The notes under the pieces were generated by a model. That model saw nothing but the letters and a program-made list of their open reading frames with translations. It was not told where the DNA came from and made no database searches. Of a stretch of DNA of 64,000 bases, positions 8,295-44,517 are shown one piece after another. How positions within the stretch are numbered: position 1 is the stretch's first letter; every line of letters begins with the position of its first letter. Source of the stretch: Dehalococcoidales bacterium (GTDB taxonomy: Bacteria > Chloroflexota > Dehalococcoidia > Dehalococcoidales > RBG-16-60-22). Position numbers and translations under genes: made by a program. The stretch lies in the NCBI GenBank assembly GCA_050014095.1, contig JBEKDZ010000004.1, forward strand, positions 90,834 through 154,833, written 5' to 3'.

Positions 8295-10889
8295 ATGAGC
8301 GAGAGTAGGTTCTCATCGCGCTGGCTGATAGTAATTCTGCTGCTCGTCATCTTTGGAGTAGCGCTTTACATCCGCGTCGCTCCAATTTATAACAATATTT
8401 TCGTTGGTGATAATGTAAAATACGCTTCTAATGATGCCTATTACTTTTTGCGCCAGGCTGACAATCTCGTACATCATTTCCCTCATTTCTCTTCCTTTGA
8501 TCCATATTTGAATTATCCTTATGGCTTGCAAACAGGCTCGATGAACTTTTTTGTTTATCTCCTCGGTGGCATCGCCTGGCTTTTTGGGTTGGGTTCACCG
8601 AGTACTCATCTATTGGATGTCATCAGCGCTTACTTGCCGGCATTTTTTGGGGCGCTGACTGTAATCCCTCTATATTTTATCGGCAGGGCTTTGTTCAATC
8701 GGGGAGTTGGCATCATAGCCGCGGCTTTAATCGCTATTCTACCCGGGGAGTTACTGGGTAGAACACTTCTCGGCTTAACCGACAGGGATTCCCTTGAAAT
8801 CCTGTTAACCACTTTGACGATGATGTTTATTATTCTGGCTGTGAAAAGCGCCCGGGAGAAACAACCGACCTTCCGGCGTCTTAATCGGCAGAATTTACCC
8901 GTTTACACTAAACCTATTATCTACAGTCTGCTATCCGGCATCTTTCTTGGGCTTAGCATCCTTACCTGGAGGGGTTCTTTCCTCTTTGTGATAGTATTCC
9001 TTGCCTTGTTCGTCATCCAGTCCATCTTTGATTATGCGGAAGACGAGTCCTTTGGTTACATTAGCTTCGCCGGTATCATAACTTTTCTCACGGCGCTCTT
9101 GATAGTTGGGGTAGTATCCCGCAGCCAGATATACTCGGGCGCTCTTGCTATTTCTCTTTTCATACCACTGGCTTTATCGGGACTATCATGGCTATTGCGA
9201 CGCTGGAAGGCAAAGTCCTTTTCTTACTTTTTAACAGTCGTCGGCATTGGCGCGATTTGTATCGGTATTTTTTATGCCGCCAGTCCTTCTCTTTTCAGGT
9301 CCGTATTAGACCAATTTAGTGTTTTTGTTCCGTCCCGAGCCACGCTCACGACTACCGAGATGGGGTCTATCCTCTTTCCGGGCGGCTTGTTCACGCTTAC
9401 CGTTATTTGGAATAACTATACCACCAGCGTTTTCCTTAGTCTTATCGCTTTGATTGTGCTTATCTATCTCTATTTCCGGCGAAGCAGGGCTGAAGATTTG
9501 TTTATCCTTGTGTGGGGCATGATAATGCTCTGGGCTACTCTGGATATACGACGTATCGCTCCTTTCTTTGCTGTCACTGTCGCTCTGCTGACCGGCTACC
9601 TGTCTGTTATTCTCTATTACGTTTTCCAATTTGCACTCAACTATGTGACAGGTAGAAGTAATAATGACGTATCGTCACGACTTTTAGAATTTCTTAGCTT
9701 AAAAGGGCAGGCTGCGGCTAAGCCTTTAGTTGAGGCGTCCCCACAGGTCGATTACTATAACACGCTTGGCGTTCCTAGAGATGCAACTCGTAAACAGATA
9801 AAGAAAGCTCACGCAAGGTTGGTCTTTAAGTATCAAACTAGCGGCAGTTTAACCGATGAAAGTAGAGAGAGGCTAAGGCAAATAGACCGAGCCTATTCCA
9901 TACTTGTCGATTTCCAAAAGCGGGCTGCCTATGACGGTTCGGAGTATGACGCGGCGGCACAAGAGAAAAGCAAGCCCAGAACATCCAAGAGAGGCGAATT
10001 CCGGTTAGCCAATGGGGTAAATATTGCTATCGCCGGGCTAGCTATTTTCTTTCTTGTCCTTTTCCCTAACTTTAAACCAGCTGCCGGTACTATCGAGCAG
10101 ACAAAGACATTTATCCCCAATGATGCCTGGCTTAGTTCCATGGTCTGGTTAAAGGATAACACGCCGGAGCCTTTCGGCGATGCTAACTTTTACTACGACT
10201 TGTGTCAAACACCTTTCAACTATCCAGAAACCGCTTATGGAGTCACCGCATGGTGGGACTTCGGCTATTGGATACTAAGGATTGGTCACCGCATTCCTAA
10301 TTGCGACCCCGGCGCGGGCGCCCGAGAATCAGTAGCACGTTTATTGATATCCCAGAATGAAACCGCAGCTAATGAACTAGCTAACATCCTAAACTCTAAA
10401 TATGTCATTGTTGACGATGCCACAGTTACCGAGATGGTTTATGCGATAACGACCTATGCCGGCACCACCAGTGAGCAGTTTTTTGATATGTACTTTATAC
10501 TTGGCAACGATGGCAAGCTAAGACCGGTTGTTTACTATTACCCCCAATATTATCAATCTCTGGCTGTCAGACTTTATATTTTTAATGGGAACGAGATAGT
10601 TCCTGATAGCATCGATGTTATCTCTTATGTAGAGAAGGTGAACAATGATGGGACACGCTATAAACAGGTAACAGGCGATAAGACCTTCAACAGCTATAAA
10701 GAGGCGACTGATTATCTCGCCAAGCAGACTACAGGCAATTACAGGATAGTCAATGCGAGTCCTTTTGTGAGCTCTGTACCACTAGAACGGCTCGAGCATT
10801 ATAAGCTCGTATATTCATCCAATCAGTCTTCATTGGTCTACTTAGAGAAAAACGTGCCGGCGTTGAAAATTTTCGAACGCATCGATTAA
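8295..10889 (+). CDS. STT3/AglB/PglB-family oligosaccharyltransferase with inserted J-like domain
   Basis: 864 aa with about 12-13 hydrophobic segments. Motifs: SNDAYYF (aa 45-51), GLTDRDSLE (aa 160-168), LTTTEM (aa 351-356), WWDFGYW (aa 653-659), then KYVIVDDATVTEMVYAI. The C-terminal ~270-aa soluble domain follows the last TM segment. Confidence 0.8.
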   Translation: MSESRFSSRWLIVILLLVIFGVALYIRVAPIYNNIFVGDNVKYASNDAYYFLRQADNLVHHFPHFSSFDPYLNYPYGLQTGSMNFFVYLLGGIAWLFGLGSPSTHLLDVISAYLPAFFGALTVIPLYFIGRALFNRGVGIIAAALIAILPGELLGRTLLGLTDRDSLEILLTTLTMMFIILAVKSAREKQPTFRRLNRQNLPVYTKPIIYSLLSGIFLGLSILTWRGSFLFVIVFLALFVIQSIFDYAEDESFGYISFAGIITFLTALLIVGVVSRSQIYSGALAISLFIPLALSGLSWLLRRWKAKSFSYFLTVVGIGAICIGIFYAASPSLFRSVLDQFSVFVPSRATLTTTEMGSILFPGGLFTLTVIWNNYTTSVFLSLIALIVLIYLYFRRSRAEDLFILVWGMIMLWATLDIRRIAPFFAVTVALLTGYLSVILYYVFQFALNYVTGRSNNDVSSRLLEFLSLKGQAAAKPLVEASPQVDYYNTLGVPRDATRKQIKKAHARLVFKYQTSGSLTDESRERLRQIDRAYSILVDFQKRAAYDGSEYDAAAQEKSKPRTSKRGEFRLANGVNIAIAGLAIFFLVLFPNFKPAAGTIEQTKTFIPNDAWLSSMVWLKDNTPEPFGDANFYYDLCQTPFNYPETAYGVTAWWDFGYWILRIGHRIPNCDPGAGARESVARLLISQNETAANELANILNSKYVIVDDATVTEMVYAITTYAGTTSEQFFDMYFILGNDGKLRPVVYYYPQYYQSLAVRLYIFNGNEIVPDSIDVISYVEKVNNDGTRYKQVTGDKTFNSYKEATDYLAKQTTGNYRIVNASPFVSSVPLERLEHYKLVYSSNQSSLVYLEKNVPALKIFERID
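9747..9938 (+). other. J-like (DnaJ N-terminal-type) domain lacking the HPD tripeptide, inserted before the last TM helix of the OST
   Basis: VDYYNTLGVPRDATRKQIKKAHARLVFKYQTSGSLTDESRERLRQIDRAYSILVDFQKRAAYDGSEY. This matches the J-domain helix I-III pattern (DYYxxLGV...IKKAYRxL..KYHPD...I..AY.vL.D..KR..YD), but QTS replaces HPD. Confidence 0.65.
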
Positions 10890-11028: not shown

Positions 11029-11814
11029 ATGGCAGCATTTATCCACATTGTAAAGATTATCTGGCTGCGCCGTTCGCTAATAGTTGAACTTGTTAAGCGT
11101 GAGGTGAAGCTGCGTTACCGTGGAACATGGCTTGGTTTTTTGTGGAGTCTGCTTAACCCCCTCATCATGACGGTAGTTTATACCTTGGTCTTTGTCTACT
11201 TCTTCCGCGTAAGCACTCCTAATTACTCTGTTTTCCTGTTTTGCGCGCTGCTGCCCTGGAACTGGTTTAGTGAAGCGATAATGTCAGGAACGGATTGCTT
11301 TGTAGGGCGTTCCGGGTTCGTACGTGATGCTATTTTCCCCACCGCAATTCTACCCGTTTCTTTAATAGGATCAAGCATGATGAACTATGTGTTTTCCCTG
11401 CCTATCCTGCTGATAGCGTTGCTTGCATTCAGAGTTCCATTTGGCTGGAGTCTGCTTACCTTACCCTTGATTATGGCAGTGCAATTTTTATTTACGCTGG
11501 GTATTGTTTTCATCCTGGGGACGTTTAACGTTTTCTTTCGTGATTTGCGTTACATCGTCCAAAATCTTATGATGGCCCTCTTTTTCTTGACACCAATTAT
11601 GTATGATATTAACACTATCCCAGAGAATTTCCGGATTCTCCTAAAGTTAAACCCAATGGAACACTTAGTTAATGACTACCGGAGCATTTTCTACTACAAC
11701 AACTGGCCCGACTGGGGGGATACCGGGATAGTCGTTGCTATCAGTCTTGTATTTATCGTTCTGGGTATATGGGCTTTTGAAACGCATAGGGAGAGTTTTG
11801 CTGAATACCTATGA
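11029..11814 (+). CDS. wzm: ABC-2 type polysaccharide exporter permease (Wzm/TagG-like)
   Basis: 261 aa with about six hydrophobic segments. The N-terminal LVKREVKLRYRGTWLGFLWSLLNPL is typical of ABC-2 permeases. Its stop overlaps the start of the ATPase gene (ATGA). Confidence 0.75.
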   Translation: MAAFIHIVKIIWLRRSLIVELVKREVKLRYRGTWLGFLWSLLNPLIMTVVYTLVFVYFFRVSTPNYSVFLFCALLPWNWFSEAIMSGTDCFVGRSGFVRDAIFPTAILPVSLIGSSMMNYVFSLPILLIALLAFRVPFGWSLLTLPLIMAVQFLFTLGIVFILGTFNVFFRDLRYIVQNLMMALFFLTPIMYDINTIPENFRILLKLNPMEHLVNDYRSIFYYNNWPDWGDTGIVVAISLVFIVLGIWAFETHRESFAEYL

Positions 11815-12566
11815 AAGACGCTATTGTACTGGAACATGTAAGTAAGAATTTCAAGCGCTTCGCCGTATCGGGGCAAACCACGCTCAAAGACGCAATATTA
11901 AGAGGGAAGATCTTCCAGATGGGACGTTCTGCTGGGTATGTAGAAGCACTAAAGGACATCTCCTTTTCTGTGCCGGAAGCTACGGTGCTCGGCATTATCG
12001 GCCCTAACGGAGCAGGCAAGAGCACACTGCTGCGGATTCTCGCCGGCATTTACCGTCCGACCTCGGGGCAAGTTAATGTTAAGGGGCGTATCTCGGCGTT
12101 GCTAAGCCTTGGTCTTGGGTTCCACCCCGAGTTCTCCGGACGAGAAAATATTATCATCAGCGGGCTGGCTTTAGGTTTATCCCGCAAGCAGGTTGCCGAT
12201 ATTTCTGATGATATCATCCAGTTCGCCGAGCTTGAGGAGTTTATCGATGCACCGATGCGTACCTATTCCTCTGGAATGTATATGCGGCTGGCCTTCTCTG
12301 TCTCCGTCAACATCAACCCGGATATCCTGCTTCTCGACGAAGTGCTAGCTGTCGGCGATGCCAGTTTTGCCCAAAAAAGCCGGGCGCGTATGGAAGAGTT
12401 CAAGAATAGCGGCAAAACCATCGTTCTGGCAACGCATGACCTCGCCACAGTGGAGAACTGGTGCCAGCAGGCAATCTTTTTATACGGTGGTCAGATATGC
12501 GGCTTTGGCAAACCCAAGGAGGTTGTCGCCAAGTACCGGGAAATAGCGCTCGGCGGACCTCATTAA
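11811..12566 (+). CDS. wzt: ABC polysaccharide exporter ATP-binding protein (Wzt/TagH-like, short form)
   Basis: Walker A GPNGAGKST, signature YSSGMYMRLAF, Walker B ILLLDEVLAVGD. At only 251 aa it has no C-terminal glycan-binding extension. Confidence 0.8.
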   Translation: MKDAIVLEHVSKNFKRFAVSGQTTLKDAILRGKIFQMGRSAGYVEALKDISFSVPEATVLGIIGPNGAGKSTLLRILAGIYRPTSGQVNVKGRISALLSLGLGFHPEFSGRENIIISGLALGLSRKQVADISDDIIQFAELEEFIDAPMRTYSSGMYMRLAFSVSVNINPDILLLDEVLAVGDASFAQKSRARMEEFKNSGKTIVLATHDLATVENWCQQAIFLYGGQICGFGKPKEVVAKYREIALGGPH

Positions 12567-12602
12567 GAGGCATATTATATTTAGGGTGGAGTGGGATGCA
12601 GG

Positions 12603-13724
12603 ATGAAAATTCTGTATAGCGTCACAGGTGCTGTCTTCGGGGGAGCTGTCGCTCATGTGCTTAGCCTGATGCGAGCCGATGTCAAAGCCGGACATTCTGT
12701 AGGTCTGGTTGCCGCCCCCGAGCCACGCCTGATGTCGGAAGCCAAGGATATCGGTGTCCATGTCTTTCCCAACCCCTATTTTGTCCACGGGGTACAGCCA
12801 CTCCAAGACATCCGGGCACTGTGGCCAGTGTTCCGGGGCGTTCAGAAATTCAAGCCGGATATTATCTCGGCGCACTCAACCAAGGCGGGATATGCCGCCC
12901 GCTTCGCCGGCGCGATTCTAAGAAAGAAAGTAGTTTTTACCGCTCACGGCTGGCCTTTTACCGAGGGACGAGGTGCATGGCAGAGGTGCCTCTTAGCTCT
13001 GGTGGAACGGTTGGCTTCTATGGCGACGGTAACTATCATTTGCGTTTCTGCCTATGACCAAGAATTAGCCCTGAAATTCAAGGTAGCCTCGCTCGAGAAG
13101 CTGGTGCTGATTCATAACGGGGTGGACCCTGCCCCCCTGCTCAACGCCAGGGGCGAACAGGTACGCCGGGAATTCGGATTGGGAAAGGTGCCGGTACTCG
13201 TTATGGTAGGGCGACTTACCCAGCAGAAGGACCCCCTAACACTGCTGGAGGCCTGCCGACTGCTTGAGACAAACTTCAGGTTAATGATGGTCGGGGATGG
13301 CGAACTGCGCGATAAAGTGGAGGAATTCGTCGCCCGAAACAATCTACGTGACAAGGTCACTTTTACCGGAGAGAGAAATGATATCCCCGAGATTCTGGCC
13401 GCCAGCGATATTCTGATACTTGACTCCCGCTGGGAGGGACTTCCCTTGATCATTATTGAGGCCGAGATAGCCGGGCTGCCCGTGGTGGCCTCGGGGGTTG
13501 GCGGCGTGCCGGAGCTGATTGAGGACGGTGTTACCGGTTTTATTGTCCCGCCGAGAAATCCGCAGGCACTGGCGAATGTAATACAGAAGCTCCTTGGTGA
13601 TGCGAATCTGCGCCACCGGGTCGGGTCGGTCGCCCGTGAGAAGGCCCTCCGTGAGTTCACTTTTCAACGTATGTTGACAAAGACCCAACAGTTATATAAG
13701 GATATTCTCAAGAATAAAGCCTGA
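12603..13724 (+). CDS. GT4 family glycosyltransferase
   Basis: MKILYSV start (the track's GTG at 12591 is an in-frame alternative), with AGGGTGGAG upstream. E-x7-E region EGLPLIIIEAEIAGLPVVASGVGGVPELIEDGVTGFIV. Confidence 0.8.
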   Translation: MKILYSVTGAVFGGAVAHVLSLMRADVKAGHSVGLVAAPEPRLMSEAKDIGVHVFPNPYFVHGVQPLQDIRALWPVFRGVQKFKPDIISAHSTKAGYAARFAGAILRKKVVFTAHGWPFTEGRGAWQRCLLALVERLASMATVTIICVSAYDQELALKFKVASLEKLVLIHNGVDPAPLLNARGEQVRREFGLGKVPVLVMVGRLTQQKDPLTLLEACRLLETNFRLMMVGDGELRDKVEEFVARNNLRDKVTFTGERNDIPEILAASDILILDSRWEGLPLIIIEAEIAGLPVVASGVGGVPELIEDGVTGFIVPPRNPQALANVIQKLLGDANLRHRVGSVAREKALREFTFQRMLTKTQQLYKDILKNKA

Positions 13725-13804
13725 TTTGGTACTAAACCGAAAGGTTTAATAAGTATCTATTATTCGGTGTTGAATTAACCAGGAGATGAGGTGTAGAAAA
13801 GATA

Positions 13805-14767
13805 ATGATTTGGGTATCATTCGTGTGTGCGCTGGCGGTAAGTTATTTCAGCTTTCCTTTGATAATCCCACGGTTGGCTAGGGCTGGCATCACTGGAAAA
13901 GACCTGAATAAACCAGGACAGCCCGAAATCGCGAATATCGGCGGGCTGGTTACTGTGGCCGGTTTTAGCGCAGGAATTCTCCTTATAATTGCTCTAATAA
14001 CTTTTACGGATTTATTCAACTTCATTAATCTTCAATATTTGCTGGCGGCATTATCCACCGTGCTCACTGCCGTGTTGATTGGTATTGTTGATGACTTCGT
14101 CTCCCTTAGGCAATGGTTTAAGGCGCTAACACCTATATTCAGCGCCCTGCCCCTTATAGCCGTAAAGGCAGGCGATACCACCTTGGGTATCCCCTTTTTT
14201 GGTCAGATTGACCTCGGCATTATCTACACCCTGGTTCTCGTGCCTATCGGCGTTACCATAGCCGCAAACGGAGTTAATATGCTGGCTGGATTCAACGGAC
14301 TGGAAACAGGGATGGGCCTGGTAGGCATGGCAGCTTTGGCGGTTATCGCCGGCTTCCTCGGTGAGAACACCGCTCTTACTATTTTACTGGCGGCTATGGG
14401 CGCCCTTTTAGCCACGCTCCGCTTTAACTGGTACCCTGCCAAGATATTTATCGGGGACGCCGGTACCTTCAGCATCGGAGCGATGATGGCCACGGCGGTT
14501 ATCATCGGCAATTTTGAGCTGGCTGGGGTAATCATCATGATTCCCTATGCTGTAGACTTCTTCATCAAGGCGGCCAATCGTTTCCCGAGTCATGGCTGGG
14601 AGGGAATATACCGAGACGGTAAGCTATATTGTCCCGAGTCGAGAGTTAAGGGGCTGGCGCAGCTAGTAATGAAGCTGACAGGAGGCGTTAGCGAGAGGAA
14701 CCTAACGCTGATTTTAATCGGTATTGAAGTAATTTTCGCAGCTATCGCTATTTGGCTTTTCCATTAA
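13805..14767 (+). CDS. Polyprenyl-phosphate HexNAc-1-phosphate transferase (MraY/WecA/AglH family, initiating enzyme)
   Basis: 320 aa, about 10 TM segments. Motifs: Mg-binding IVDDFVSL, NMLAGFNGLETG, GDAGTFSIG. Size and motifs resemble archaeal AglH / eukaryotic GPT-type enzymes. Confidence 0.75.
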   Translation: MIWVSFVCALAVSYFSFPLIIPRLARAGITGKDLNKPGQPEIANIGGLVTVAGFSAGILLIIALITFTDLFNFINLQYLLAALSTVLTAVLIGIVDDFVSLRQWFKALTPIFSALPLIAVKAGDTTLGIPFFGQIDLGIIYTLVLVPIGVTIAANGVNMLAGFNGLETGMGLVGMAALAVIAGFLGENTALTILLAAMGALLATLRFNWYPAKIFIGDAGTFSIGAMMATAVIIGNFELAGVIIMIPYAVDFFIKAANRFPSHGWEGIYRDGKLYCPESRVKGLAQLVMKLTGGVSERNLTLILIGIEVIFAAIAIWLFH

Positions 14768-25863: not shown

Positions 25864-26823
25864 ATGATAATCGTTACCGGCGCGGCGGGATTTGTTGGCC
25901 GTTATCTGGTCGACCAGTTGATTAAAGACGGCGTTGAGGTTTTGGCTACTGCCAGAAGCCAGGCAGGCGAGCAATACTACAAAAAGCAGGGCATACCCTT
26001 TATCAATCTGGATGTTTCTAATGAGGAGGACTTCACTAAACTACCCAAGCAGGGTGTTGAAGGAGTCGCTCACGTTGCCGCTTTGTTGAGTATTGATATC
26101 GCGCAACACACACCTAAAGACTATCTTTTGACTAATGCCCTCGGCACTTATAATGTATTGGAATACTGCCGGAAAAATAATATCAAAAAGATAGTCTACA
26201 CCATGACCCATAGTGATGTTAATCGTGCCAAAGAAGTAATTATCACGGAAGAAACCCCGAGGCAGTTTGGTGCAACGATTGGATTAGGAAATACCGTACC
26301 TTTTATTGTCTCAAAAATTGCCGCCAGTACCTTCATTGAAGTTTATGACGGGGATGGATTAATCCAAGCGATTATGTTGAGATTACCGGGTGTTCGCGGC
26401 TACGGCAGCCGTGATACCTATTACAATACGGTTTTTCACCAGTTTATCCAGAAAGCAATGAAAAGTGGTCCGATAGAGATATGGGGAGAGCATAAGACCG
26501 TGCGTGATTTGGTATATGTCAAAGATGTTACTGCTGCTATCAGCCAAGCACTCAAGAGTGAAAATGCCCGCGGTCTTTATAATATAGGTTCGGGAAAGGG
26601 CTTAACTATCGAGGATGAAGCCAAGGCCATCATCAAGGCGTTTTCTCCGCCGGGCAAGCCCTCGCCTCTCGTTTACCGCCCGGACATTGAAGAGGTCAGG
26701 AAAAGAAGCTATGTATGGGATATAAGCAAGGCAAAGAGAGAGCTTGACTGGGAGCCTCGCTATTCCTACTATGAAGCCATGGTAGACTACAAGAAAGAGA
26801 TGGAGCGAGGATATTTTAAATAG
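25864..26823 (+). CDS. Extended-SDR-like NAD(P)-binding protein with Phe in the catalytic Tyr position
   Basis: VTGAAGFVGRYLVDQL Rossmann motif. VPFIVSKIAASTFIEVY aligns to TPYGASKAASDLLVLSY of the neighbouring SDR, giving F147-x3-K151 instead of Y-x3-K. Confidence 0.6.
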   Translation: MIIVTGAAGFVGRYLVDQLIKDGVEVLATARSQAGEQYYKKQGIPFINLDVSNEEDFTKLPKQGVEGVAHVAALLSIDIAQHTPKDYLLTNALGTYNVLEYCRKNNIKKIVYTMTHSDVNRAKEVIITEETPRQFGATIGLGNTVPFIVSKIAASTFIEVYDGDGLIQAIMLRLPGVRGYGSRDTYYNTVFHQFIQKAMKSGPIEIWGEHKTVRDLVYVKDVTAAISQALKSENARGLYNIGSGKGLTIEDEAKAIIKAFSPPGKPSPLVYRPDIEEVRKRSYVWDISKAKRELDWEPRYSYYEAMVDYKKEMERGYFK

Positions 26824-26852
26824 AACACACCAACAATTGAGGATGAGCATAT

Positions 26853-27761
26853 ATGAAATGGATTAAGAGAGGGTTGATTTTTCAACCGACCAAGGCTAAA
26901 TGGATGATTACACATGCTACATTGCCTTTTGCAGAAAAAATAGGAGAGGATATTTACCGCGTATATTTTTCGGCACGAGATCAGCTAAACAGATCACAAC
27001 CGGGATTTATAGAAATAGACATAAAAGAACCTTACAAATGTTTATATATCAGCGAAACACCGATTCTCGGTTTAGGTGACCTAGGCTGCTTTGATGATAG
27101 CGGCGTAACGGCATGCTGTATTGTTGAGCACCGCAGTACAAAATTCTTGTTCTATAACGGATGGAATAGGGGGGTAACTGTTCCATATCATATTTATCTT
27201 GGACTTGCTATCAGCAAAGATGAAGGGAAAACCTTTGAAAAAATTTCTAAAGTACCAATACTAGATAGAAATATTCATGATCCGTGCATAACATCATCCC
27301 CATCCATATTGATTGAGAATGGAATCTGGCGGATGTGGTATAGTTCCGGCGGAAGATGGGAAGTAAAAAATGGTAAATTTAAGAACTACTATCAAATAAA
27401 ATATGCTGAATCTAGGGACGGTGTAGATTGGGAGAGAAAGGGAGTAGTGTGCATACCATATAAGTCTAAAGATGAATATGCTATTGGTCGTCCTTGTGTT
27501 TTAAAAGAGGGTAGCAAATACAAGATGTGGTATTCATACAGTAGTGGAAGTTACAGAATTGGTTATGCGGAATCCAAGGATGGTGTAGTTTGGGAAAGAA
27601 AAGATGAAGAAGTAGGGATAGATGTCTCCGAGTCAGGCTGGGATTCCGAATCGATAGAATACCCTTTTGTTTTTATACATCAAGGTAAGAAATATTTGCT
27701 CTACAATGGCAATCAATTCGGTAAAGACGGTTTTGGTCTTGCAATAGAAACATCAATTTAA
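26853..27761 (+). CDS. Five-bladed beta-propeller protein (GH32/43/130-like superfamily), function unknown
   Basis: 302 aa. Recurring blade motifs KFLFYNGWN, WRMWYSSGG, YKMWYSYSS, KYLLYNGNQ, with W-E-R-K loops (DGVDWERKG, DGVVWERKD). Confidence 0.45.
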   Translation: MKWIKRGLIFQPTKAKWMITHATLPFAEKIGEDIYRVYFSARDQLNRSQPGFIEIDIKEPYKCLYISETPILGLGDLGCFDDSGVTACCIVEHRSTKFLFYNGWNRGVTVPYHIYLGLAISKDEGKTFEKISKVPILDRNIHDPCITSSPSILIENGIWRMWYSSGGRWEVKNGKFKNYYQIKYAESRDGVDWERKGVVCIPYKSKDEYAIGRPCVLKEGSKYKMWYSYSSGSYRIGYAESKDGVVWERKDEEVGIDVSESGWDSESIEYPFVFIHQGKKYLLYNGNQFGKDGFGLAIETSI

Positions 27762-27771
27762 ACATGCGAAG

Positions 27772-28815
27772 ATGAGAATATTTATTGGACCAAATGAAAT
27801 TGCCAATATCAACGCCATACTGGCAAGCGCCTTAAAAGAAAAAGAAATAAAAGTCACTGCTGTTAGATATAATATGTCACCATTTTTTGAGGGTATGAGA
27901 TATGATGTAGCGCTTAATTTCCAAGGTTTAAATAAGTTACAGAAGATATTTAAGTATCTCTACCACTTTCCGAAATTTTTCCTCAAGCATGATGCCTTTA
28001 TCTTCCTATTTGGAGCAAGTCTCCTCCCCTGCAATCTGGACATCCCCATTCTCAAGCTATTCCACAAGAAGACAGTAATGTGGTTCTTGGGTAGCGATAT
28101 AAGACATTACGAGGCTGTGGAGGCAACCATTAGAAAAATGGGCATAAAATACCAGCTAAGTGAAGCTTATAGAGAGGAACCAAAAGCTCTCAAAAGAAAA
28201 TTAAGAATGATACGCAGGGTGGAAAAGTATGTGGATTATATAATTTCTGAGCCATCATACTCTCAATTATTGACCAGAGACGATTTAGGGAAGGAGATGG
28301 CTAGCAAAATTTATATTCCACTGGATGTAGATAACATTAGATATAATAATGCCCCTAACCCGAGACCAGTGGTAGTCCACGCTCCAAGTAACGATGAAAT
28401 CAAAGGGACTACTTATATTTTAAAGGCAGTAGAGCAGCTTAAAAAAGAAGGCTATGACTTTGACTTCCGCTTGTTTAGAAACATGAGTAATATTGAGGTA
28501 CGGCGGACATTATCTGAGGCAGATATCGCTGTTGACCAATTATTCGCCGCAGGTCCTGGTATGTTTGCGCTTGAATCTATGGCGGCTGGGTGTGCCGTGT
28601 TAGGCGGCAATATCCCGGAGTTCGCTGGTTATCCCCGGGAGCTGCCTATTATTCATACCGACCCTGATAATATCTACCAGAACCTGAAAATGCTACTGGA
28701 AAACCCCGAGTTAAGGCGAGAGCTGGGGGAAAAGGGCAGGAAATATGTGGAGAAATACCACGACCACAGAAAGATAGCCGATGATTTTATCAGGCTTTTA
28801 GCTGGAAGTAAGTAA
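27772..28815 (+). CDS. GT-B fold glycosyltransferase-like protein
   Basis: 347 aa. C-terminal VVHAPSNDEIKGTTYILKAVEQLKKEG ... AAGPGMFALESMAAGCAVLGG resembles the GT1/GT4 donor-binding half. Confidence 0.5.
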   Translation: MRIFIGPNEIANINAILASALKEKEIKVTAVRYNMSPFFEGMRYDVALNFQGLNKLQKIFKYLYHFPKFFLKHDAFIFLFGASLLPCNLDIPILKLFHKKTVMWFLGSDIRHYEAVEATIRKMGIKYQLSEAYREEPKALKRKLRMIRRVEKYVDYIISEPSYSQLLTRDDLGKEMASKIYIPLDVDNIRYNNAPNPRPVVVHAPSNDEIKGTTYILKAVEQLKKEGYDFDFRLFRNMSNIEVRRTLSEADIAVDQLFAAGPGMFALESMAAGCAVLGGNIPEFAGYPRELPIIHTDPDNIYQNLKMLLENPELRRELGEKGRKYVEKYHDHRKIADDFIRLLAGSK

Positions 28816-28829
28816 GGAAATATAACATA

Positions 28830-30311
28830 ATGCAGCAAAAGATAGTAAATACTGTAAAGCATTCAGCTATTTATAGTGTTACCGCCGTTGTCAGCCCATT
28901 TATCAGTATATTTCTAATACCTGTCTACACCAGAATATTTTCCCCGGCCGCCTACGGTATTATGGCTGGCATAAACATGTTTACTCCTATCGTATCGACT
29001 CTTATAAATGCAGCCCCCCAGAACGCAATCGCCCGCTTTTATCTTGACTCCCAAGATACCAACGACAGGAAGCTTACTGCATCTGTCGGACTTTACCAGA
29101 TAATCTTTGTAGCACTAGTTTTAATTTTACCTTTGACCTTGATCTTTCCTCAAGAGATATCAGAGCTGGTTCTAAAAGATAGCCAATACACCAAGTATTT
29201 TATTATCGCCTTAGCCACGATATTTTTCACTAGTTTCTTTAACTACGGGCAAGATATGATGAGATTTAACTTTCAATCTATTAGATATTCTGTTATCTCC
29301 ATGGTGTATACCCTTACTGCAGTTGGTTTATCCATCCTACTGGTCGTGGTATTGAGAATGGATATAACCGGAGCCCTGACTGCCTCTCTTATTGCCTCGG
29401 CAATGTTTAGTTTTGTTATTATTTTAATGACCAGAAAATACTACTCATGGTCGTTTTCCACAACCAGGCTCAAGGAAATGTTAAAATATGGGCTCCCTCT
29501 TATTCCTGTGGGAATCTTGACTTATGCTCTAACCTACACCGACCGATATTTCCTGATTAATTATCGCGGTCTGGCTGATTTGGGGTTGTATTATGTTGGG
29601 CTCTCTCTAGCTAACGTTCCCGCGATTCTTTTCTCTGGCTTCCAGGTAGCCTGGGCACCTATCCTTTGGTCAACCTACAAGGATGAAGACGCCAAGCAGT
29701 TTTATTCCAAAATACTCGATTACTCCTTTGCCTTGGCTATTCTGGCTATCACGGCAGTCTCGGTATTCTCCCGAGAAATACTAGTAGTCATCACTACTAC
29801 AGAATACCTGGATGCATATAAGGTGGTGCCTTGGCTGGCTTTTAGTCTGTTATTTACGACGGTCTTTTCCCTGTTTGTCCCGGGGGTAGGTATTGCTAAA
29901 AAAACAGTCCACCATATATGGCGTATTGCCGTGGTACTAGTATTAAACATTGCCTTGAATTTTTGGCTCGTTCCTATCTACGGAATGGTAGGGGCGGCTG
30001 TAGCTACCCTGATATCATCCGCTATTTCCTACATCATATATTTGATTATGTCGCAAAGATATTACCCTATGCGCTACAATTTTCTTAGTTATTTCGAGAT
30101 AACCTCTGTTGCCGTAGTAATACTATTTCTATGGTATTACTTATTCCTGGATATAAGCTGGCATAACGTTTTAATCAAGCTAGGGTTGATGCTCCTGTTA
30201 CTAATATCCCTTTTCGTTTTTAAAACGATTGGCAAGACGGAGCTTAGTTTTGTTAAACAGGTGACTGTTACATATTTTAAAAAACTTATGTCATCAAAAG
30301 TATTTCACTAG
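28830..30311 (+). CDS. wzx: Wzx-type (MOP superfamily) oligosaccharide flippase
   Basis: 493 aa with about 12-14 hydrophobic segments. Polysaccharide-biosynthesis-protein-like N-terminus (KHSAIYSVTAVVSPFISIFLIPVYTRIFSP). Last gene of the operon. Confidence 0.65.
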   Translation: MQQKIVNTVKHSAIYSVTAVVSPFISIFLIPVYTRIFSPAAYGIMAGINMFTPIVSTLINAAPQNAIARFYLDSQDTNDRKLTASVGLYQIIFVALVLILPLTLIFPQEISELVLKDSQYTKYFIIALATIFFTSFFNYGQDMMRFNFQSIRYSVISMVYTLTAVGLSILLVVVLRMDITGALTASLIASAMFSFVIILMTRKYYSWSFSTTRLKEMLKYGLPLIPVGILTYALTYTDRYFLINYRGLADLGLYYVGLSLANVPAILFSGFQVAWAPILWSTYKDEDAKQFYSKILDYSFALAILAITAVSVFSREILVVITTTEYLDAYKVVPWLAFSLLFTTVFSLFVPGVGIAKKTVHHIWRIAVVLVLNIALNFWLVPIYGMVGAAVATLISSAISYIIYLIMSQRYYPMRYNFLSYFEITSVAVVILFLWYYLFLDISWHNVLIKLGLMLLLLISLFVFKTIGKTELSFVKQVTVTYFKKLMSSKVFH

Positions 30312-34203: not shown

Positions 34204-37200
34204 ATGAAAATGCGGCATGTTGTCCTAATAGTGCTGGCGGAGTTGTGTGCTTTGCTAGCGCCCCTGCCGGTTCAGGCTGATGATGAGCATATCCTCGAGT
34301 GGGCACAGGTAGATAAGCCCGGTATATCCGGTAATATTGTGGTCACCCCATCTGAAGTCAACGAACTAGCCTTCGGGAGCGGGAGCGTTATCTATGCCCT
34401 TGATACCAGCGCCAATGCCACCAAATCTTCCAAAGTCTATAAATCAGTCAATGGGGGGTCGAGTTGGACAGATATAACCTCCTCACTAATTAGTGCTGGT
34501 GCCGTGTTACCCGCCACCAAGATTGCCGCTGCCCCGGATACAACAGGCTTGGTGGCTGTAGTGACTGATGACGGTACTGGAGTCTACCTATCAGCCAATG
34601 GGGGAGGTACCTGGACTAACCTAGGCGTTCCCGGTTTGGCGGGTAAAATCCAGGCTATTACTATCTCGAAGAAGTATAAGTATATCGAAACTAACACGTT
34701 AGTGAATGAGATTGCCATTGGCACGGCGGAGTGGGGTGATACTACAACTACAGGACAGGTATGGGTGTATCAGTATGGGATAACACTAACAACATGGCAA
34801 AATCAAAACCTGACAATCGACCCTGCCCACATTGGCGGCGAGGTATCGGCTATCGCTTATTCCCCCAGCTATTCAAGAGATAAAACAATAATTGTCGTCG
34901 CGTCTACCAGTGACAGTGATGTTGATGCTGGTCCCCCCGTGGACTACCGTAGCCAGACCTGGTTATGCCTCGGTTACCGGGATACAGATGTGGGGACGAC
35001 CCAGTGGAACAATGCAGTTTTCACCGGTTATCCGGTGGCGATTGGTACGTTGCCATCCGGCGGCGATGGCACCGGCGTCTCCAGTATTTCCTCATCAATA
35101 GCCTTGCCCTCCAACTACTCCACCAGCAGTACCGCCCTAATGAAGCTCTTTGTGGGCTACAACCGAGACCCGGATACAGCCTTCGCTAACGATGTTTACC
35201 TAATTAATGACACAACAGTCCGCCGCCTCGACGCTAGTAATAGCGGTACCACCCCTCCTAGTGCTATCAATATCAGCAGCATTGCTTATTACGGTACAAC
35301 AACTTCCGGTAAACTCCTCGCCGGCGATGAGAATCCGTTTACTTCATTTAATGTCCAGGTGCGGCGGACGGCCAACCCTTTTGATGTATTTCCAACCTGG
35401 GTCCTTGCCTCGCTACCCCCCTCGGGCCCAGGCAATTCCAAGGTAAGCTGGAGTTCTGACGGTAATTCGGCTTACTGCGGCACCGGTCAGTTACCCGGTG
35501 TCGGCTTGGACGAAAGCGCCTTCTCTATAAGCACCGATGGCGGTGATAACTGGCAGCAGATAAGCCTAATCGACACTATATTGAAGCTCGCTGATATCGC
35601 CGTCACCCCTGACTCAAAAACCCTGTTTCTGACATCTTATAGCGCCTTCGGCCCTGAAGGCGTCTGGCGGAGTACCCTTATTGAGGAGGGAATAGGCGTG
35701 TACTGGTCACGGCAGCTGAACATGAACACTAACTCCCAGAGGATTATCTTGAGATTAAGCCCCAACTATACTTCAGACTACACTATTTACGCCTTTGAAC
35801 CCGGAGGCGAGCTTTTATACATTTCCCACGACCGGGGTAACTCATGGAAGCGGCGTCTTACCCTCGGTGCGACGATTGATGGTGTAGCGGCTGATGCAGA
35901 CACCTTCTATGTCGCCTTACCTGGAGGTTACGTCAGGCGGGCCACTAACGACGGCTTGATTTGGGGTAAATTGGTTTTCACCGGAGTGGATGACATCAAC
36001 ATGTTGACTATCACCTCAAATGGCACCATCCTCGTCGGCGGCAGAAAGGGAGATGTTGCCTATTCCAACGACGGCGGCGCTAGCTTTACCTTGATAAACG
36101 AGACTATCGGCACCGGAGATGTCCAGGTGGTGGGGGACGTTAATTACCAGGATAATGGTATTATCTATGCCAGTACCAATGCCTCTGATAGCGGTATCTG
36201 GCGCTGGCGGATGGGGATTTCCACTTATTGGGAGCAGATTGATAAGTCTATTACTGACCTGGGGACGGGGCAGCGTATCGGCGGCCTGACTACCGGACCC
36301 GAAGGCACACTCTACGCTTTAAGAGCGGAGCCAGCGGGCGGGATAAGCCGGTCACTGAACCCGGCTGCCCTGGATAATATTGAGTTTGATATCACCAACA
36401 AGGAATTGCCGGCAGATGTCGCCTTCGACTCCTCGGCGATTTTCCCCCATACCCTCCCTTATCTCAAGGTCTCCACCAACGCCACAGAAAACGAGATATG
36501 GTCTATTGATACCGCCCATGACACTGTTTATCGCTTCGAAGACACTCTGGCGACCAACTTCCCGACGTTAGTTTCACCGGTGAATATGTACGAGGACATG
36601 GTAAACTCAGTAACCGGCCGGGCCGCCGACATTGCTTTTAGCTGGAATGCGCCTTCCCTGAAGGTTACCAACTACGAAATTGGCATCTACACCGATGCTG
36701 CCTGTACTATTCCCGCCCAGCTATGTTTTGTTGCGAGTCTTTACCCGAACATACCCAATATATCCGTGGTCATCGGCCCGTATCAGTCAGCCACAAGTAA
36801 CCAGTGCCTTGAGTATGTTCCTGGCGCCACCTACTACTGGCGGGTGAGGACAATCGGGCCCTTGAGAAGCCCCTGGTCCGAGGTACACGGCTTCGCGATA
36901 GCGCCGTTACATGAACTGGTCATCAACTTGCTGTCACCACTCAACGGAGCTGCCGATGTCAGCCAAACACCGGCCTTCTCCTGGGATCCGGCAATCGGAG
37001 TTACTGACTATCAGCTGGCCCTGGCCGATGATGCCAGCTTCACCTCACCGATAGTGTCTGCCAGCATCAACAATACCGGTTTTGCCTTGACCCAAAAGCT
37101 TGCAGGCGGTAAGACCTATTTCTGGAAAGTCAGGGCAATATCACCAGTCGGGAGTGATTGGTCAACTATCGCCAATTTTACCATTAAAGATACGTCAACC

Positions 37201-37401
37201 GAATCCTCACTACCACCAGTCGCTATTCAGACAACAACATCGGTCACCACGGTCACCCTTACGGCGCCAGCGCCAACCCAGGTGATAGTCGCGCCATCAC
37301 TCCCACCGTCAAGCACGCCTGTTACTATTTGGGTCATCATCGGCATTGGCAGCATCCTGGCGATGGGTATAATCATACTGATATTAAGAACCGCCAGATA
37401 G
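34204..37401 (+). CDS. Secreted Asp-box (BNR) beta-propeller / FN3 surface protein with C-terminal TM anchor (S-layer/cell-surface glycoprotein candidate)
   Basis: Signal peptide ...LAPLPVQA/DD. Five Asp-box-like motifs: SVNGGSSW, SANGGGTW, STDGGDNW, SHDRGNSW, SNDGGASF. Two FN3-like modules: YYWRVRTIGPLRSPWS, TYFWKVRAISPVGSDWS. Then a S/T/P-rich stalk and the TM segment IWVIIGIGSILAMGIIILIL with an RTAR tail. Confidence 0.75.
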   Translation: MKMRHVVLIVLAELCALLAPLPVQADDEHILEWAQVDKPGISGNIVVTPSEVNELAFGSGSVIYALDTSANATKSSKVYKSVNGGSSWTDITSSLISAGAVLPATKIAAAPDTTGLVAVVTDDGTGVYLSANGGGTWTNLGVPGLAGKIQAITISKKYKYIETNTLVNEIAIGTAEWGDTTTTGQVWVYQYGITLTTWQNQNLTIDPAHIGGEVSAIAYSPSYSRDKTIIVVASTSDSDVDAGPPVDYRSQTWLCLGYRDTDVGTTQWNNAVFTGYPVAIGTLPSGGDGTGVSSISSSIALPSNYSTSSTALMKLFVGYNRDPDTAFANDVYLINDTTVRRLDASNSGTTPPSAINISSIAYYGTTTSGKLLAGDENPFTSFNVQVRRTANPFDVFPTWVLASLPPSGPGNSKVSWSSDGNSAYCGTGQLPGVGLDESAFSISTDGGDNWQQISLIDTILKLADIAVTPDSKTLFLTSYSAFGPEGVWRSTLIEEGIGVYWSRQLNMNTNSQRIILRLSPNYTSDYTIYAFEPGGELLYISHDRGNSWKRRLTLGATIDGVAADADTFYVALPGGYVRRATNDGLIWGKLVFTGVDDINMLTITSNGTILVGGRKGDVAYSNDGGASFTLINETIGTGDVQVVGDVNYQDNGIIYASTNASDSGIWRWRMGISTYWEQIDKSITDLGTGQRIGGLTTGPEGTLYALRAEPAGGISRSLNPAALDNIEFDITNKELPADVAFDSSAIFPHTLPYLKVSTNATENEIWSIDTAHDTVYRFEDTLATNFPTLVSPVNMYEDMVNSVTGRAADIAFSWNAPSLKVTNYEIGIYTDAACTIPAQLCFVASLYPNIPNISVVIGPYQSATSNQCLEYVPGATYYWRVRTIGPLRSPWSEVHGFAIAPLHELVINLLSPLNGAADVSQTPAFSWDPAIGVTDYQLALADDASFTSPIVSASINNTGFALTQKLAGGKTYFWKVRAISPVGSDWSTIANFTIKDTSTESSLPPVAIQTTTSVTTVTLTAPAPTQVIVAPSLPPSSTPVTIWVIIGIGSILAMGIIILILRTAR

Positions 37402-44164: not shown

Positions 44165-44191
44165 CTGTCCTGCTTCTTTGCTATCTTAAAA

Positions 44192-44225
44192 GGGGGGAGT
44201 AATAACACTCCCCCCTTATTATTTG
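44192..44225 (+). terminator. Rho-independent terminator
   Basis: 9-bp stem GGGGGGAGT (44192-44200) / ACTCCCCCC (44207-44215), 6-nt loop, then TTATTATTT. Confidence 0.65.
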
Positions 44226-44249
44226 CTAGAATATTAATAGAGCGTTTTT

Positions 44250-44501: not shown

Positions 44502-44517
44502 TAAAATCAATGCATGT

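What the first reader, a model, noticed from the sequence alone, without database searches (positions are those of the whole stretch)
9747..9938. HPD-less J-like domain inserted into the last cytoplasmic loop of the oligosaccharyltransferase
Between the penultimate hydrophobic segment (aa ~425-448) and the final TM helix (aa ~574-592) there is a ~120-aa insert. Its core reads VDYYNTLGVPRDATRKQIKKAHARLVFKYQTSGSLTDESRERLRQIDRAYSILVDFQKRAAYD. This follows the DnaJ J-domain helix I-II-III pattern almost residue for residue, but the Hsp70-activating HPD tripeptide is QTS.

Exactly one TM helix separates it from the WWDFG domain, which must be extracytoplasmic. The J-like module should therefore face the cytoplasm. 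I know of no OST of any domain of life with a J or J-like insertion.

Speculative roles are coupling the OST to a cytoplasmic partner (DnaK-like, Sec/ribosome-associated, or glycan-assembly enzymes), or acting as an oligomerisation or regulatory module.
Basis: partly seen in the sequence, partly recalled or inferred. Interest (0 to 1): 0.8.

Follow-up and report, generated by a model that had tools for sequence, protein, structure and literature searches.

The report
Oligosaccharyltransferase with a built-in J-like domain
A bacterial (Chloroflexota) protein-glycosylating enzyme carries, on its cytoplasmic side, a real chaperone-recruiting "J" domain that has lost its activating HPD motif, while some relatives keep the motif. 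This suggests an undescribed link between N-glycosylation and the Hsp70 chaperone system.

Summary
ORF 8295-10889 (+) encodes an 864-aa AglB/STT3 oligosaccharyltransferase (TIGR04154, 507 bits against a cut-off of 450). Residues 486-547 match Pfam DnaJ end to end (44 bits against a cut-off of 27.8). They fold as a J domain in AlphaFold models (TM 0.81, rmsd 1.7 Å to the DnaK-bound E. coli J domain). QTS stands where HPD should be.

The segment lies between TM12 and TM13, flanked by low-confidence linkers, and 13-TM parity puts it in the cytoplasm. It is not an artefact: 27 of 28 full-length members of the query's clade carry it, and none has HPD. It is as conserved as the catalytic core (58-62% against 62%), while the linkers are at 35-42%.

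Two further results:
- Among 229 Chloroflexota AglBs, 70 carry the J module. Eight sequences (seven clusters) keep a canonical HPD, and others have near-HPD forms such as RPD, QPD and HAD. The module was therefore probably once a true DnaK-activating J domain.
- The loop-J-TM13 region behaves as a swappable cassette. Two loci that are 98-99% identical in DNA differ only in this segment.

The function is inferred: a tethered cytoplasmic docking module that no longer activates Hsp70. No paper describing it was found. I rate it a new variant of known kinds.

The parts
8295..10889 (+). aglB: 864-aa archaeal-type oligosaccharyltransferase (STT3/AglB) carrying the J-like insert
   Evidence: ORF. Pfam STT3, AglB_core and DnaJ. 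NCBIfam TIGR04154, 506.8 bits against a cut-off of 450. Foldseek to A. fulgidus AglB 3wak, E 1e-24, TM 0.62.
9549..9650 (+). TM12 (aa 419-452), a long helix with a ~23-aa extension (about aa 437-459) absent from most J-less homologues
   Evidence: AF2 helix H419-452. Hydropathy peak 421-439. Alignment gap in J-less homologues.
9651..9749 (+). Linker 1 (aa 453-485): short amphipathic helix 457-467, then a low-confidence stretch
   Evidence: AF2 pLDDT below 50 at 469-484. Only 39-42% identity within the clade.
9750..9938 (+). J-like domain (aa 486-548): helices I-IV of a DnaJ-type J domain
   Evidence: PF00226, 44 bits, profile 1-63/63. PDB J-domain hits down to E 7e-11. Foldseek 5nro_B TMt 0.81, rmsd 1.7 Å; 6iws TMt 0.79, rmsd 1.7 Å. 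58-62% identity within the clade, like the catalytic core.
9834..9842 (+). Q514-T515-S516 at the position of the Hsp70-activating HPD tripeptide
   Evidence: Alignment to E. coli DnaJ H33-P34-D35. The position is variable (Q/R/S/T, T/S/A/L, G/S/H/T) across the 27 clade members.
9939..9998 (+). Linker 2 (aa 549-568): end of helix IV, then a K/R-rich low-confidence stretch (KSKPRTSKRGEFR)
   Evidence: AF2 pLDDT below 50 at 551-571. 6 K+R in 22 residues. 35-42% identity within the clade.
9999..10109 (+). TM13 (aa 569-605), the only membrane helix between the J-like domain and the external catalytic domain
   Evidence: AF2 helix H569-605. Hydropathy peak 571-589. Aligns to the last TM of A. fulgidus AglB-L.
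10251..10265 (+). WWDFG catalytic motif of the external C-terminal domain
   Evidence: Position. W653, W654 and G657 are invariant and D655 nearly invariant in 58 homologues.
11029..12566 (+). wzm-wzt: ABC-2 permease and ATPase directly downstream, conserved with aglB in the query's clade
   Evidence: Pfam ABC2_membrane and ABC_tran. Same order and 78-84% identity in L001 and L019; in L022 Wzt is 84% and Wzm 61% identical.
12591..14767 (+). GT1 glycosyltransferase and GT4 (MraY/WecA/AglH-like) initiating phosphosugar transferase, part of the conserved block
   Evidence: Pfam. Conserved in L001, L019 and L022.

Best explanation
SHOWN:
- The window encodes an archaeal-type oligosaccharyltransferase (AglB) of a Chloroflexota bacterium.
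- Its TM12-TM13 loop carries a DnaJ-derived J domain. The loop is placed in the cytoplasm by homology to the solved 13-TM AglB topology and by helix parity.
- The domain hangs on two poorly conserved, low-confidence linkers of about 20-30 residues each.
- In the query's clade the Hsp70-activating HPD loop has decayed (QTS here; it varies between members). The rest of the domain is as conserved as the catalytic core.
- In sister lineages the same cassette keeps a canonical KYHPDRN.
- In near-identical genomes the cassette is present, absent or replaced with sharp breakpoints.

INFERRED:
- The cassette entered Chloroflexota AglB as a genuine J domain that brought DnaK to the cytoplasmic face of the OST. 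It would have acted as a site-specific type III J protein, probably handling proteins on their way to export and glycosylation, or handling AglB itself.
- It has since spread or been lost by recombination as an accessory module.
- In the window's clade it can no longer trigger DnaK ATP hydrolysis. Established knowledge: HPD is indispensable for that.
- It most likely survives as a tethered J-like docking module. It would use its retained basic helix II (K500, K503, K504 invariant) and a clade-specific LTDE-x-RE-x-L-x-QI surface to hold a cytoplasmic partner next to the OST. Candidate partners are DnaK in a non-activating mode, a true J protein as in Pam16/Pam18, or another factor.
- It is not needed for catalysis as such, because J-less alleles exist.
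For: - Identity and fold.
- Topology: the solved AglB/PglB structures have 13 TM helices joined by short cytoplasmic loops and an external C-terminal domain (PMC7226087). The query aligns to 3waj on both sides of the insert. AF2 helix order gives 13 TMs. K/R-rich loops fall at 190-197, 304-307, 395-399 and around the J segment.
- Purifying selection: within the clade, J 58-62%, TM core 62%, C-terminal domain 56%, linkers 35-42%. K19, K22 and K23 equivalents (E. coli DnaJ numbering) are invariant, while positions 33-36 and 26-27 vary.
- Not an artefact: 27 of 28 clade members from four data sources carry it.
- Ancestral J function: 8 of 70 J-bearing AglB sequences (7 clusters) have HPD. There are also RPD x3, QPD x2, HAD x2, HSD, HHD and HPG.
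- Common origin of the cassettes: a shared YD[RH]S.Y tail, found in only 2 of 138 generic J domains.
- Accessory and mobile nature: a clean 243-nt in-frame indel between syntenic loci L023 and L024, whose AglBs are 82% identical. A sharp-edged replacement between L028 and L029, which are 98-99% identical in DNA elsewhere. At least 21 presence/absence changes on the tree.
Against: - No partner was identified. No chaperone or other candidate gene is consistently next to J-bearing aglB genes.
- The whole genomes were not available, so co-occurrence with DnaK paralogues or other J proteins could not be tested.
- Much of the retained conservation coincides with generic J-fold residues, so it may partly reflect fold maintenance only.
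- J-less alleles in close relatives show the module is dispensable in some backgrounds.
- The direction of change (HPD ancestral, then lost) rests on an unbootstrapped, midpoint-rooted NJ tree and on near-HPD remnants, not on a rooted, well-supported phylogeny.
- Topology is predicted, not measured.
Confidence: 0.55

Rival explanations
1. The J-like domain docks the OST to the glycan assembly and export machinery encoded beside it (the Wzm/Wzt ABC transporter or cytoplasmic glycosyltransferases). It would work independently of Hsp70, forming a glycosylation complex that channels lipid-linked glycan to AglB.
For: In the query's clade, aglB is always followed by wzm-wzt-GT1-GT4. The neighbours are mostly more conserved (78-84%) than AglB itself (about 65%). 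J domains serve as structural subunits of large complexes in solved structures that appeared among the fold matches: NDH-PSI subunit U, Tetrahymena complex I, radial spokes. The HPD loop is relaxed, but a clade-specific surface motif is conserved.
Against: J-bearing AglBs outside the main clade sit in quite different gene neighbourhoods, some with no adjacent ABC transporter. HPD-bearing relatives point to an Hsp70-related origin. No interaction evidence exists.
Confidence: 0.15
2. The domain is a decaying relic or passive spacer. A once-functional J domain lost its role and now persists only because removing it would disturb TM12-TM13 packing or membrane insertion.
For: HPD is lost and the HPD-loop positions drift freely. 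J-less alleles exist in close relatives of other lineages, so the OST works without it. The AF2 model shows it on flexible linkers, with no confident contact to the rest of the enzyme.
Against: Across a clade that has diverged to 53-68% identity, the domain is as conserved as the catalytic TM core and clearly more so than its own linkers. Surface lysines of helix II are invariant. 27 of 28 clade members keep it intact with no truncation. A neutral relic would be expected to erode or be deleted, as happens readily in the sister clade.
Confidence: 0.15
3. Despite lacking HPD, the domain still works as a DnaK co-chaperone, activating or productively recruiting DnaK through helix II and III contacts and a non-canonical loop.
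For: Helix II keeps its basic face, and helices III and IV are close to the DnaJ consensus. The query is 40% identical to the E. coli J domain over 62 aligned positions in the Foldseek match to 5nro_B, and 33-42% to other J domains. HPD-bearing relatives exist.
Against: Established knowledge: single substitutions in HPD (such as H33Q or D35N in E. coli DnaJ) abolish ATPase stimulation. Here all three residues are replaced, and the replacement is not even conserved within the clade (QTS, STS, SSS, QTG, TSG, RTG, QLH and others). This argues against a new functional motif at that site.
Confidence: 0.1
4. Assembly chimera, frameshift artefact or chance similarity.
For: Some database relatives are visibly broken by frameshifts (P0121 in L022).
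Against: The window has one uninterrupted ORF. The G+C of the J segment equals that of the gene (0.448 against 0.454). There are 70 independent J-bearing AglBs from several sources. The HMM score is above the curated threshold.
Confidence: 0.01

Closest known systems
Archaeal AglB, 'archaeosortase A system-associated' OST (NCBIfam TIGR04154); solved example A. fulgidus AglB-L (PDB 3waj, 3wak, 5gmy, 7e9s)
   Same: Full-length HMM match above the curated cut-off. The 13-TM core plus external C-terminal domain. The WWDxG motif. Conserved acidic residues in EL1, EL2 and EL5 (D47, D163, E355). The gene sits in a glycan-biosynthesis locus.
   Different: The host is a bacterium (Chloroflexota). The short cytoplasmic TM12-TM13 loop (about 12 residues in AfAglB-L) is replaced by about 127 residues containing a J-like domain. 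No described AglB, PglB or STT3 was found to have this.
DnaJ-type J domain (Pfam PF00226), for example E. coli DnaJ residues 1-70 bound to DnaK (PDB 5nro)
   Same: End-to-end HMM match. 40% identity over 62 aligned positions to the E. coli J domain (5nro_B) and 33-42% to other J domains. The same four-helix fold (rmsd 1.7 Å). Basic helix II. The KRAAYD helix IV signature.
   Different: HPD is replaced by QTS, and R36 and K26 are not conserved. The domain is embedded between two TM helices of an enzyme rather than at the N-terminus of a chaperone. There is no G/F or zinc-finger region.
HPD-less 'J-like' proteins (type IV), for example mitochondrial Pam16/Tim16, which pairs with the true J protein Pam18 at the import channel (from established knowledge; papers listed)
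   Same: J fold without HPD, membrane-associated, retained under selection. Presumed to bind rather than activate.
   Different: No paired true J protein was identified here. The sequence is much closer to canonical DnaJ than Pam16 is. It is fused into an enzyme.
Membrane-embedded true J proteins that localise Hsp70: Sec63 (J domain in a loop between two TM helices at the ER translocon) and E. coli DjlA (from established knowledge)
   Same: TM-J-TM (Sec63) or TM-anchored J architecture that places a J domain at a membrane machine dealing with exported proteins. HPD-bearing relatives of the query (for example P0284, P0305, P0323, P0356) fit this logic.
   Different: The Sec63 J domain faces the lumen (trans side) and has HPD. 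Here the domain faces the cytoplasm (cis side), the host protein is the OST itself, and the window's copy lacks HPD.

Membership tests
J-domain family (Pfam PF00226) as a sequence and fold family | Profile match above the curated gathering score over the whole domain | tested here: met
   44.0 bits against 27.8, profile 1-63/63, aa 486-547.
J-domain family (Pfam PF00226) as a sequence and fold family | Four-helix J fold with an antiparallel helix II / helix III hairpin | tested here: met
   AF2 helices 487-491, 499-514, 521-538 and 540-558, block-mean pLDDT about 63-89 in the full-length model and 80-94 in the insert model. Foldseek 5nro_B TMt 0.81 at 1.7 Å; 6iws 0.79 at 1.7 Å; 3ucs 0.79 at 2.5 Å.
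Functional J-domain co-chaperones (Hsp40 types I-III) | Invariant His-Pro-Asp tripeptide in the helix II-III loop | tested here: not met
   QTS at aa 514-516. No member of the query's 27-member clade has HPD.
Functional J-domain co-chaperones (Hsp40 types I-III) | Stimulation of Hsp70/DnaK ATP hydrolysis | not testable with these tools
   Needs an ATPase assay or genetic complementation.
J-like (HPD-less, type IV) proteins | J fold retained under selection without HPD | tested here: met
   Fold as above. Within-clade identity is 58-62% for the J segment against 35-42% for the linkers.
Pam16-type J-like regulators | Forms a heterodimer with a cognate true J protein | not tested
   No partner gene was seen in the window or related loci. 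Whole genomes were not available.
AglB/STT3 oligosaccharyltransferase (TIGR04154 subfamily) | Full-length HMM score above the curated cut-off | tested here: met
   506.8 bits against 450.
AglB/STT3 oligosaccharyltransferase (TIGR04154 subfamily) | 13-TM GT-C fold plus external C-terminal domain with the WWDxG motif | tested here: met
   Foldseek 3wak E 1e-24, TM 0.62. WWDFG at 653-657. Invariant or nearly invariant D47, D163, E355, W653, W654 and D655.
AglB/STT3 oligosaccharyltransferase (TIGR04154 subfamily) | Co-occurrence with archaeosortase A and PGF-CTERM substrates (basis of the family name) | not tested
   The 64-kb window holds no archaeosortase. The 1065-aa surface protein at 34204-37401 has a C-terminal TM anchor but no obvious PGF motif.
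AglB/STT3 oligosaccharyltransferase (TIGR04154 subfamily) | Transfers lipid-linked glycan to Asn in N-X-S/T | not testable with these tools
   Needs biochemistry or glycoproteomics.
Sec63-type loop-embedded J domain | J domain between two TM helices, facing the trans (lumenal or external) side, with HPD | tested here: not met
   It lies between two TM helices, but is predicted to be cytoplasmic and lacks HPD.

The most novel reading that the evidence does not exclude
Chloroflexota AglB enzymes are the first oligosaccharyltransferases that double as site-specific J proteins. In the HPD-bearing forms, the OST itself recruits and activates DnaK at the cytoplasmic face of the export and glycosylation site, coupling cytosolic Hsp70 handling of pre-secretory proteins (or of AglB) to N-glycosylation. 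The window's clade would be a derived, non-activating J-like state of this coupling. The whole loop-J-TM13 module would circulate as an exchangeable allele cassette within populations, tuning that coupling.
Probability: 0.3. Interest if true: 0.8.

Novelty: new variant of a known kind. Interest (0 to 1): 0.62.

Why it matters
All described OST catalytic subunits (PglB, AglB, STT3) have only short cytoplasmic loops. No prokaryotic OST is known to be physically linked to cytosolic chaperones or to the export machinery.

A J domain built into the enzyme is a concrete, testable handle on an open question: how, or whether, prokaryotic N-glycosylation is coordinated with substrate delivery and unfolding.

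The family offers a natural series for experiments:
- HPD-intact forms.
- Near-HPD forms.
- HPD-less but conserved forms.
- J-less alleles in almost identical genetic backgrounds.

It also highlights a large, essentially unstudied group of archaeal-type N-glycosylation systems in wall-less or S-layer-bearing Chloroflexota. And it adds a bacterial, enzyme-embedded example to the short list of J-like domains retained without HPD.

Tried and rejected
- Insert-only search. Searching the 160-aa insert alone in the word-indexed protein database returned almost nothing. The one strong hit, P0121, looked like a stand-alone membrane J-like protein. It is only a frameshift fragment of an aglB gene (L022).
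- Possible donor of the cassette. In the exhaustive profile search, small proteins matched from the J domain into the TM13 part of the profile. This suggested a tail-anchored J protein as the donor. On reading them, most are ordinary DnaJ N-termini followed by out-of-frame hydrophobic junk. I rejected this idea.
- Partner by gene neighbourhood. I looked for a chaperone or other partner gene next to J-bearing aglB genes: the whole window and loci L019-L029. There was no DnaK, GrpE or DnaJ and no gene specific to J-bearing loci. DUF1616 is adjacent in only two (L021, L027).
- Link to the TM12 extension. I checked whether J presence tracks the 23-aa TM12 extension. It does not strictly: P0073 and P0031 have J without the extension, and P0096, P0103 and P0115 have the extension without J.
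- Mechanism of the L023/L024 indel. I looked for direct repeats at the junctions that would indicate a deletion mechanism. None was obvious.
- Foreign origin. G+C of the J segment gives no sign of recent foreign origin.
- dN/dS. I did not attempt it, because the available orthologues (about 65% amino-acid identity) are saturated at synonymous sites. Region-wise amino-acid identity was used instead.
Full report
**1. What is in the sequence**

Window 9747-9938 (+) translates to VDYYNTLGVPRDATRKQIKKAHARLVFKYQTSGSLTDESRERLRQIDRAYSILVDFQKRAAYDG. It lies inside one uninterrupted ORF, 8295-10889, of 864 aa.

Pfam finds three domains:
- STT3 N-terminal, aa 25-310, E 9e-30.
- AglB_core, aa 611-708.
- DnaJ PF00226, aa 486-547, matched from profile position 1 to 63 of 63. 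The score is 44.0 bits against a gathering score of 27.8, and 47.7 bits on the isolated segment.

NCBIfam places the whole protein in TIGR04154, [quoted passage not shown], at 506.8 bits against a cut-off of 450.

phmmer against PDB sequences hits A. fulgidus AglB-L on both sides of the segment (query 2-455 to chain 4-463; query 583-737 to chain 476-644). It also hits about 45 solved J domains with the segment itself (best E 7e-11). About 127 residues therefore stand where AfAglB-L has a loop of about 12 residues. The tripeptide aligned to H33-P34-D35 of E. coli DnaJ is Q514-T515-S516.

**2. Fold and topology**

A full-length AlphaFold2 model (58-sequence alignment; mean pLDDT 78.7, pTM 0.75) resembles the A. 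fulgidus AglB crystal structures (Foldseek E 1e-24, TM 0.62) and eukaryotic STT3.

In the insert it predicts:
- helices 487-491, 499-514, 521-538 and 540-558 (block-mean pLDDT about 63-89);
- low-confidence stretches on either side (469-484 and 551-571);
- a long TM12 (419-452) before it and TM13 (569-605) after it.

A second model of aa 420-600 alone gives the same helices, with block-mean pLDDT 80-94 in the J core. Its best PDB matches are all J domains. Examples are E. coli DnaJ bound to DnaK (5nro_B, TMt 0.81, rmsd 1.7 Å over 62 columns, 40% identity), Tid1 (6iws, 0.79, 1.7 Å) and CbpA (3ucs, 0.79, 2.5 Å).

Solved AglB and PglB have 13 TM helices joined by short cytoplasmic loops and an external C-terminal domain (PMC7226087). 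In the model the helix order gives 13 TMs. The catalytic acidic residues (D47 in EL1, D163 in EL2, E355 in EL5) fall on the outer side. K/R-rich loops (190-197, 304-307, 395-399) fall on the inner side. By parity the TM12-TM13 loop is cytoplasmic. One helix separates it from the WWDFG domain (aa 653-657), and the stretch just before TM13 is KSKPRTSKRGEFR. The topology is a prediction, but all lines agree.

**3. Whose gene is it**

The closest relatives are from Chloroflexota (Dehalococcoidia/Dehalococcoidales) metagenome-assembled genomes. The best species-level genome hit is 64% identical (L001, MFD04408.bin.2.186), and source names agree. The window also holds bacterial genes such as EF-P and a MacB/HlyD efflux system.

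The gene sits in a roughly 30-kb glycan-biosynthesis cluster:
- Upstream: a UDP-glucose dehydrogenase and a 1268-aa fusion of methyltransferase, B12-radical-SAM and GT2 domains.
- Downstream: wzm-wzt, a GT1, a GT4 MraY-like initiating transferase and a PAP2 phosphatase.

The block aglB-wzm-wzt-GT1-GT4 is conserved in the close relatives L001, L019 and L022. The neighbours are 78-84% identical, except Wzm in the frameshift-damaged L022 at 61%.

**4. Is the insert real and maintained**

In an NJ tree of 217 full-length Chloroflexota AglBs, the query falls in a clade of 28. Of these, 27 carry the J segment, and none has HPD (QTS, QIS, STS, SSS, QTG, TSG, RTG, QLH and others). The sequences come from JGI, ENA, NCBI and Logan assemblies, which excludes an assembly artefact.

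Mean pairwise identity within the clade:

| Region | Identity |
|---|---|
| TM core | 62% |
| J segment | 58% (62% to the query) |
| C-terminal domain | 56% |
| Linker 1 | 39% |
| Linker 2 | 35% |

The J-like domain is thus under purifying selection comparable to the enzyme itself, and the linkers behave as tethers.

Position by position, in E. coli DnaJ numbering:
- The equivalents of R19, R22 and K23 are invariant lysines (K500, K503, K504).
- The hydrophobic core and the KRAAYD helix IV are kept.
- A clade-specific motif, LTDE-x-RE-x-L-x-QI, follows the former HPD loop.
- Positions 33-36 and 26-27 drift freely.

The constraint has been lifted exactly on the Hsp70-activating loop and kept elsewhere.

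**5. The wider family changes the picture**

I combined three searches: the first homologue search, an exhaustive profile search of 1.84 billion representatives with the TM12-J-TM13 profile, and a homologue search seeded with a distant J-bearing member.

- 70 of 229 Chloroflexota AglBs examined carry a J domain at this same loop.
- Eight sequences (seven clusters; P0073 is a truncated call of P0274) have a canonical HPD, typically KYHPDRN: P0073/P0274, P0275, P0284, P0305, P0323, P0356, P0130.
- Others are one step away: RPD x3, QPD x2, HAD x2, HSD, HHD, HPG.
- All of these lie outside the query's clade, interspersed with J-less enzymes.
- The cassettes share a YD[RH]S.Y tail after helix IV. 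Only 2 of 138 best-scoring generic J domains have it. This argues for one origin of the AglB cassette rather than repeated capture.

The most economical reading is that the cassette began as a true, DnaK-activating J domain and has lost HPD repeatedly, including once at the base of the query's clade. This polarity is inferred, not proven.

**6. The cassette is exchangeable**

- L023 (P0073, J with HPD) and L024 (P0116, J-less) are fully syntenic loci. Their AglBs are 82% identical outside the loop and differ there by a clean in-frame 243-nt (81-codon) indel.
- L028 (P0307, J-bearing) and L029 (P0329, J-less) come from two MAGs of one study. They are 98-99% identical in DNA over more than 10 kb, including both ends of aglB.
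- In this second pair, gene nucleotides ~1320-1870 share no detectable similarity (548 nt against 200 nt). That region covers the end of TM12, the loop, J, TM13 and the first ~25 external residues. This is the signature of allelic cassette replacement by recombination.
- Parsimony needs at least 21 presence/absence changes on the tree.

The module is therefore accessory to catalysis and polymorphic in some lineages, yet fixed and conserved in the query's clade.

**7. Mechanism**

- Shown: a J fold without HPD sits on flexible tethers at the predicted cytoplasmic face of an AglB. It is conserved, and HPD-bearing homologous cassettes exist in relatives.
- From established knowledge: HPD is required for a J domain to trigger Hsp70 ATP hydrolysis, and single substitutions abolish it. 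Type III J proteins act by placing a J domain at a particular site (Sec63, Pam18, DjlA). HPD-less J-like proteins such as Pam16 bind and regulate rather than activate.
- Inferred: the ancestral cassette made the OST a site-specific recruiter of DnaK on the cis side of the membrane. The window's version no longer activates DnaK and most likely serves as a tethered docking surface.
- The partner is unknown. No candidate is encoded consistently nearby.

My confidence is about 0.95 that this is a genuine cytoplasm-facing HPD-less J-like domain, and about 0.55 for the full statement including the docking role. The rivals are docking to the Wzm/Wzt and glycan-assembly machinery (0.15), a relic or spacer (0.15), a still-active co-chaperone (0.10) and an artefact (0.01).

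**8. Comparison with what is known, and novelty**

- As an enzyme it passes the tests for AglB/TIGR04154.
- As a domain it passes the sequence and fold tests for PF00226. It fails the HPD test that defines functional J-domain co-chaperones, so it is a J-like domain.
- Full-text searches found no paper linking AglB or an OST with a J domain or DnaJ in this sense. They found essentially nothing on AglB in Chloroflexota.
- Automatic Pfam annotation of database entries does already show PF00226 on these proteins. The architecture is therefore visible in databases but, as far as I could find, undescribed.

I rate it a new variant of known kinds (an OST with an accessory J/J-like cassette), interest 0.62. 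The most novel reading not excluded is Hsp70-coupled N-glycosylation with exchangeable cassette alleles. I give that a probability of about 0.3 and an interest of about 0.8 if true.

Noticed in passing
L028:7324-7871 versus L029:7324-7523 (aglB genes of GCA_042583145.1 and GCA_042579185.1): Two loci are 98-99% identical in DNA over more than 10 kb. They differ only in the TM12-end/loop/TM13 segment of aglB, which is J-bearing in one and J-less in the other, with sharp breakpoints. This is an allelic cassette swap inside an essential-looking enzyme.
   Followed up: partly
window 2966-6772 (-): A 1268-aa single ORF fuses an FkbM-type methyltransferase, a B12-binding radical SAM domain, a class I SAM methyltransferase and a GT2 glycosyltransferase. 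This is an unusual four-enzyme fusion next to the OST, presumably building a methylated sugar of the N-glycan.
   Followed up: no
window 11029-12566 (+) and 28830-30311 (+): The cluster holds both a Wzm/Wzt ABC-2 transporter immediately after aglB and a Wzx-like (Polysacc_synt) flippase 17 kb downstream. There are therefore two possible routes for moving lipid-linked glycan across the membrane. The Wzt here (251 aa) has no C-terminal glycan-binding domain, unlike the one in L027 (Wzt_C).
   Followed up: no
window 34204-37401 (+): A 1065-aa secreted protein has a signal peptide, BNR/sortilin-like repeats, 13 N-X-S/T sequons, a Ser/Thr/Pro-rich stalk and a C-terminal TM anchor ending in RTAR. 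It is a plausible surface-layer glycoprotein and OST substrate. No clear PGF-CTERM motif is present, despite the 'archaeosortase A-associated' family name of the OST.
   Followed up: partly
window 53623-55121 (+); also L020:20721-22221: EF-P is followed by a 311-aa truncated class II lysyl-tRNA-synthetase-like gene (EpmA/GenX-like). The same pair lies near aglB in the distant J-bearing locus L020. This suggests EF-P lysylation in these Chloroflexota.
   Followed up: no
window 12001-14000, 26001-30000 and 44001-46000: G+C shifts sharply within the window. It is 0.53 at 12-14 kb against 0.44-0.45 around aglB, 0.40-0.42 at 26-30 kb, and 0.41 at 44-46 kb. This suggests a mosaic glycan locus assembled from different sources.
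   Followed up: no
L021:12758-13309 and L027:12606-13055: A DUF1616 membrane protein lies directly next to aglB in two J-bearing loci outside the main clade. One of these has HAD and the other HPD at the motif position. It is absent from the window.
   Followed up: no
P0127 (679 aa): This protein consists of six near-identical tandem HPD-bearing J domains separated by low-complexity spacers. It was the top hit of the exhaustive profile search and is unrelated to AglB.
   Followed up: no
P0137 (1010 aa), P0159 (975 aa), L003:1069-3975 (974 aa): A long form of Chloroflexota AglB has about 100-150 extra hydrophobic residues inserted after EL5, as well as the J cassette (HLT or HPG at the motif position). 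The same enzyme family has therefore accepted a second large insertion.
   Followed up: no
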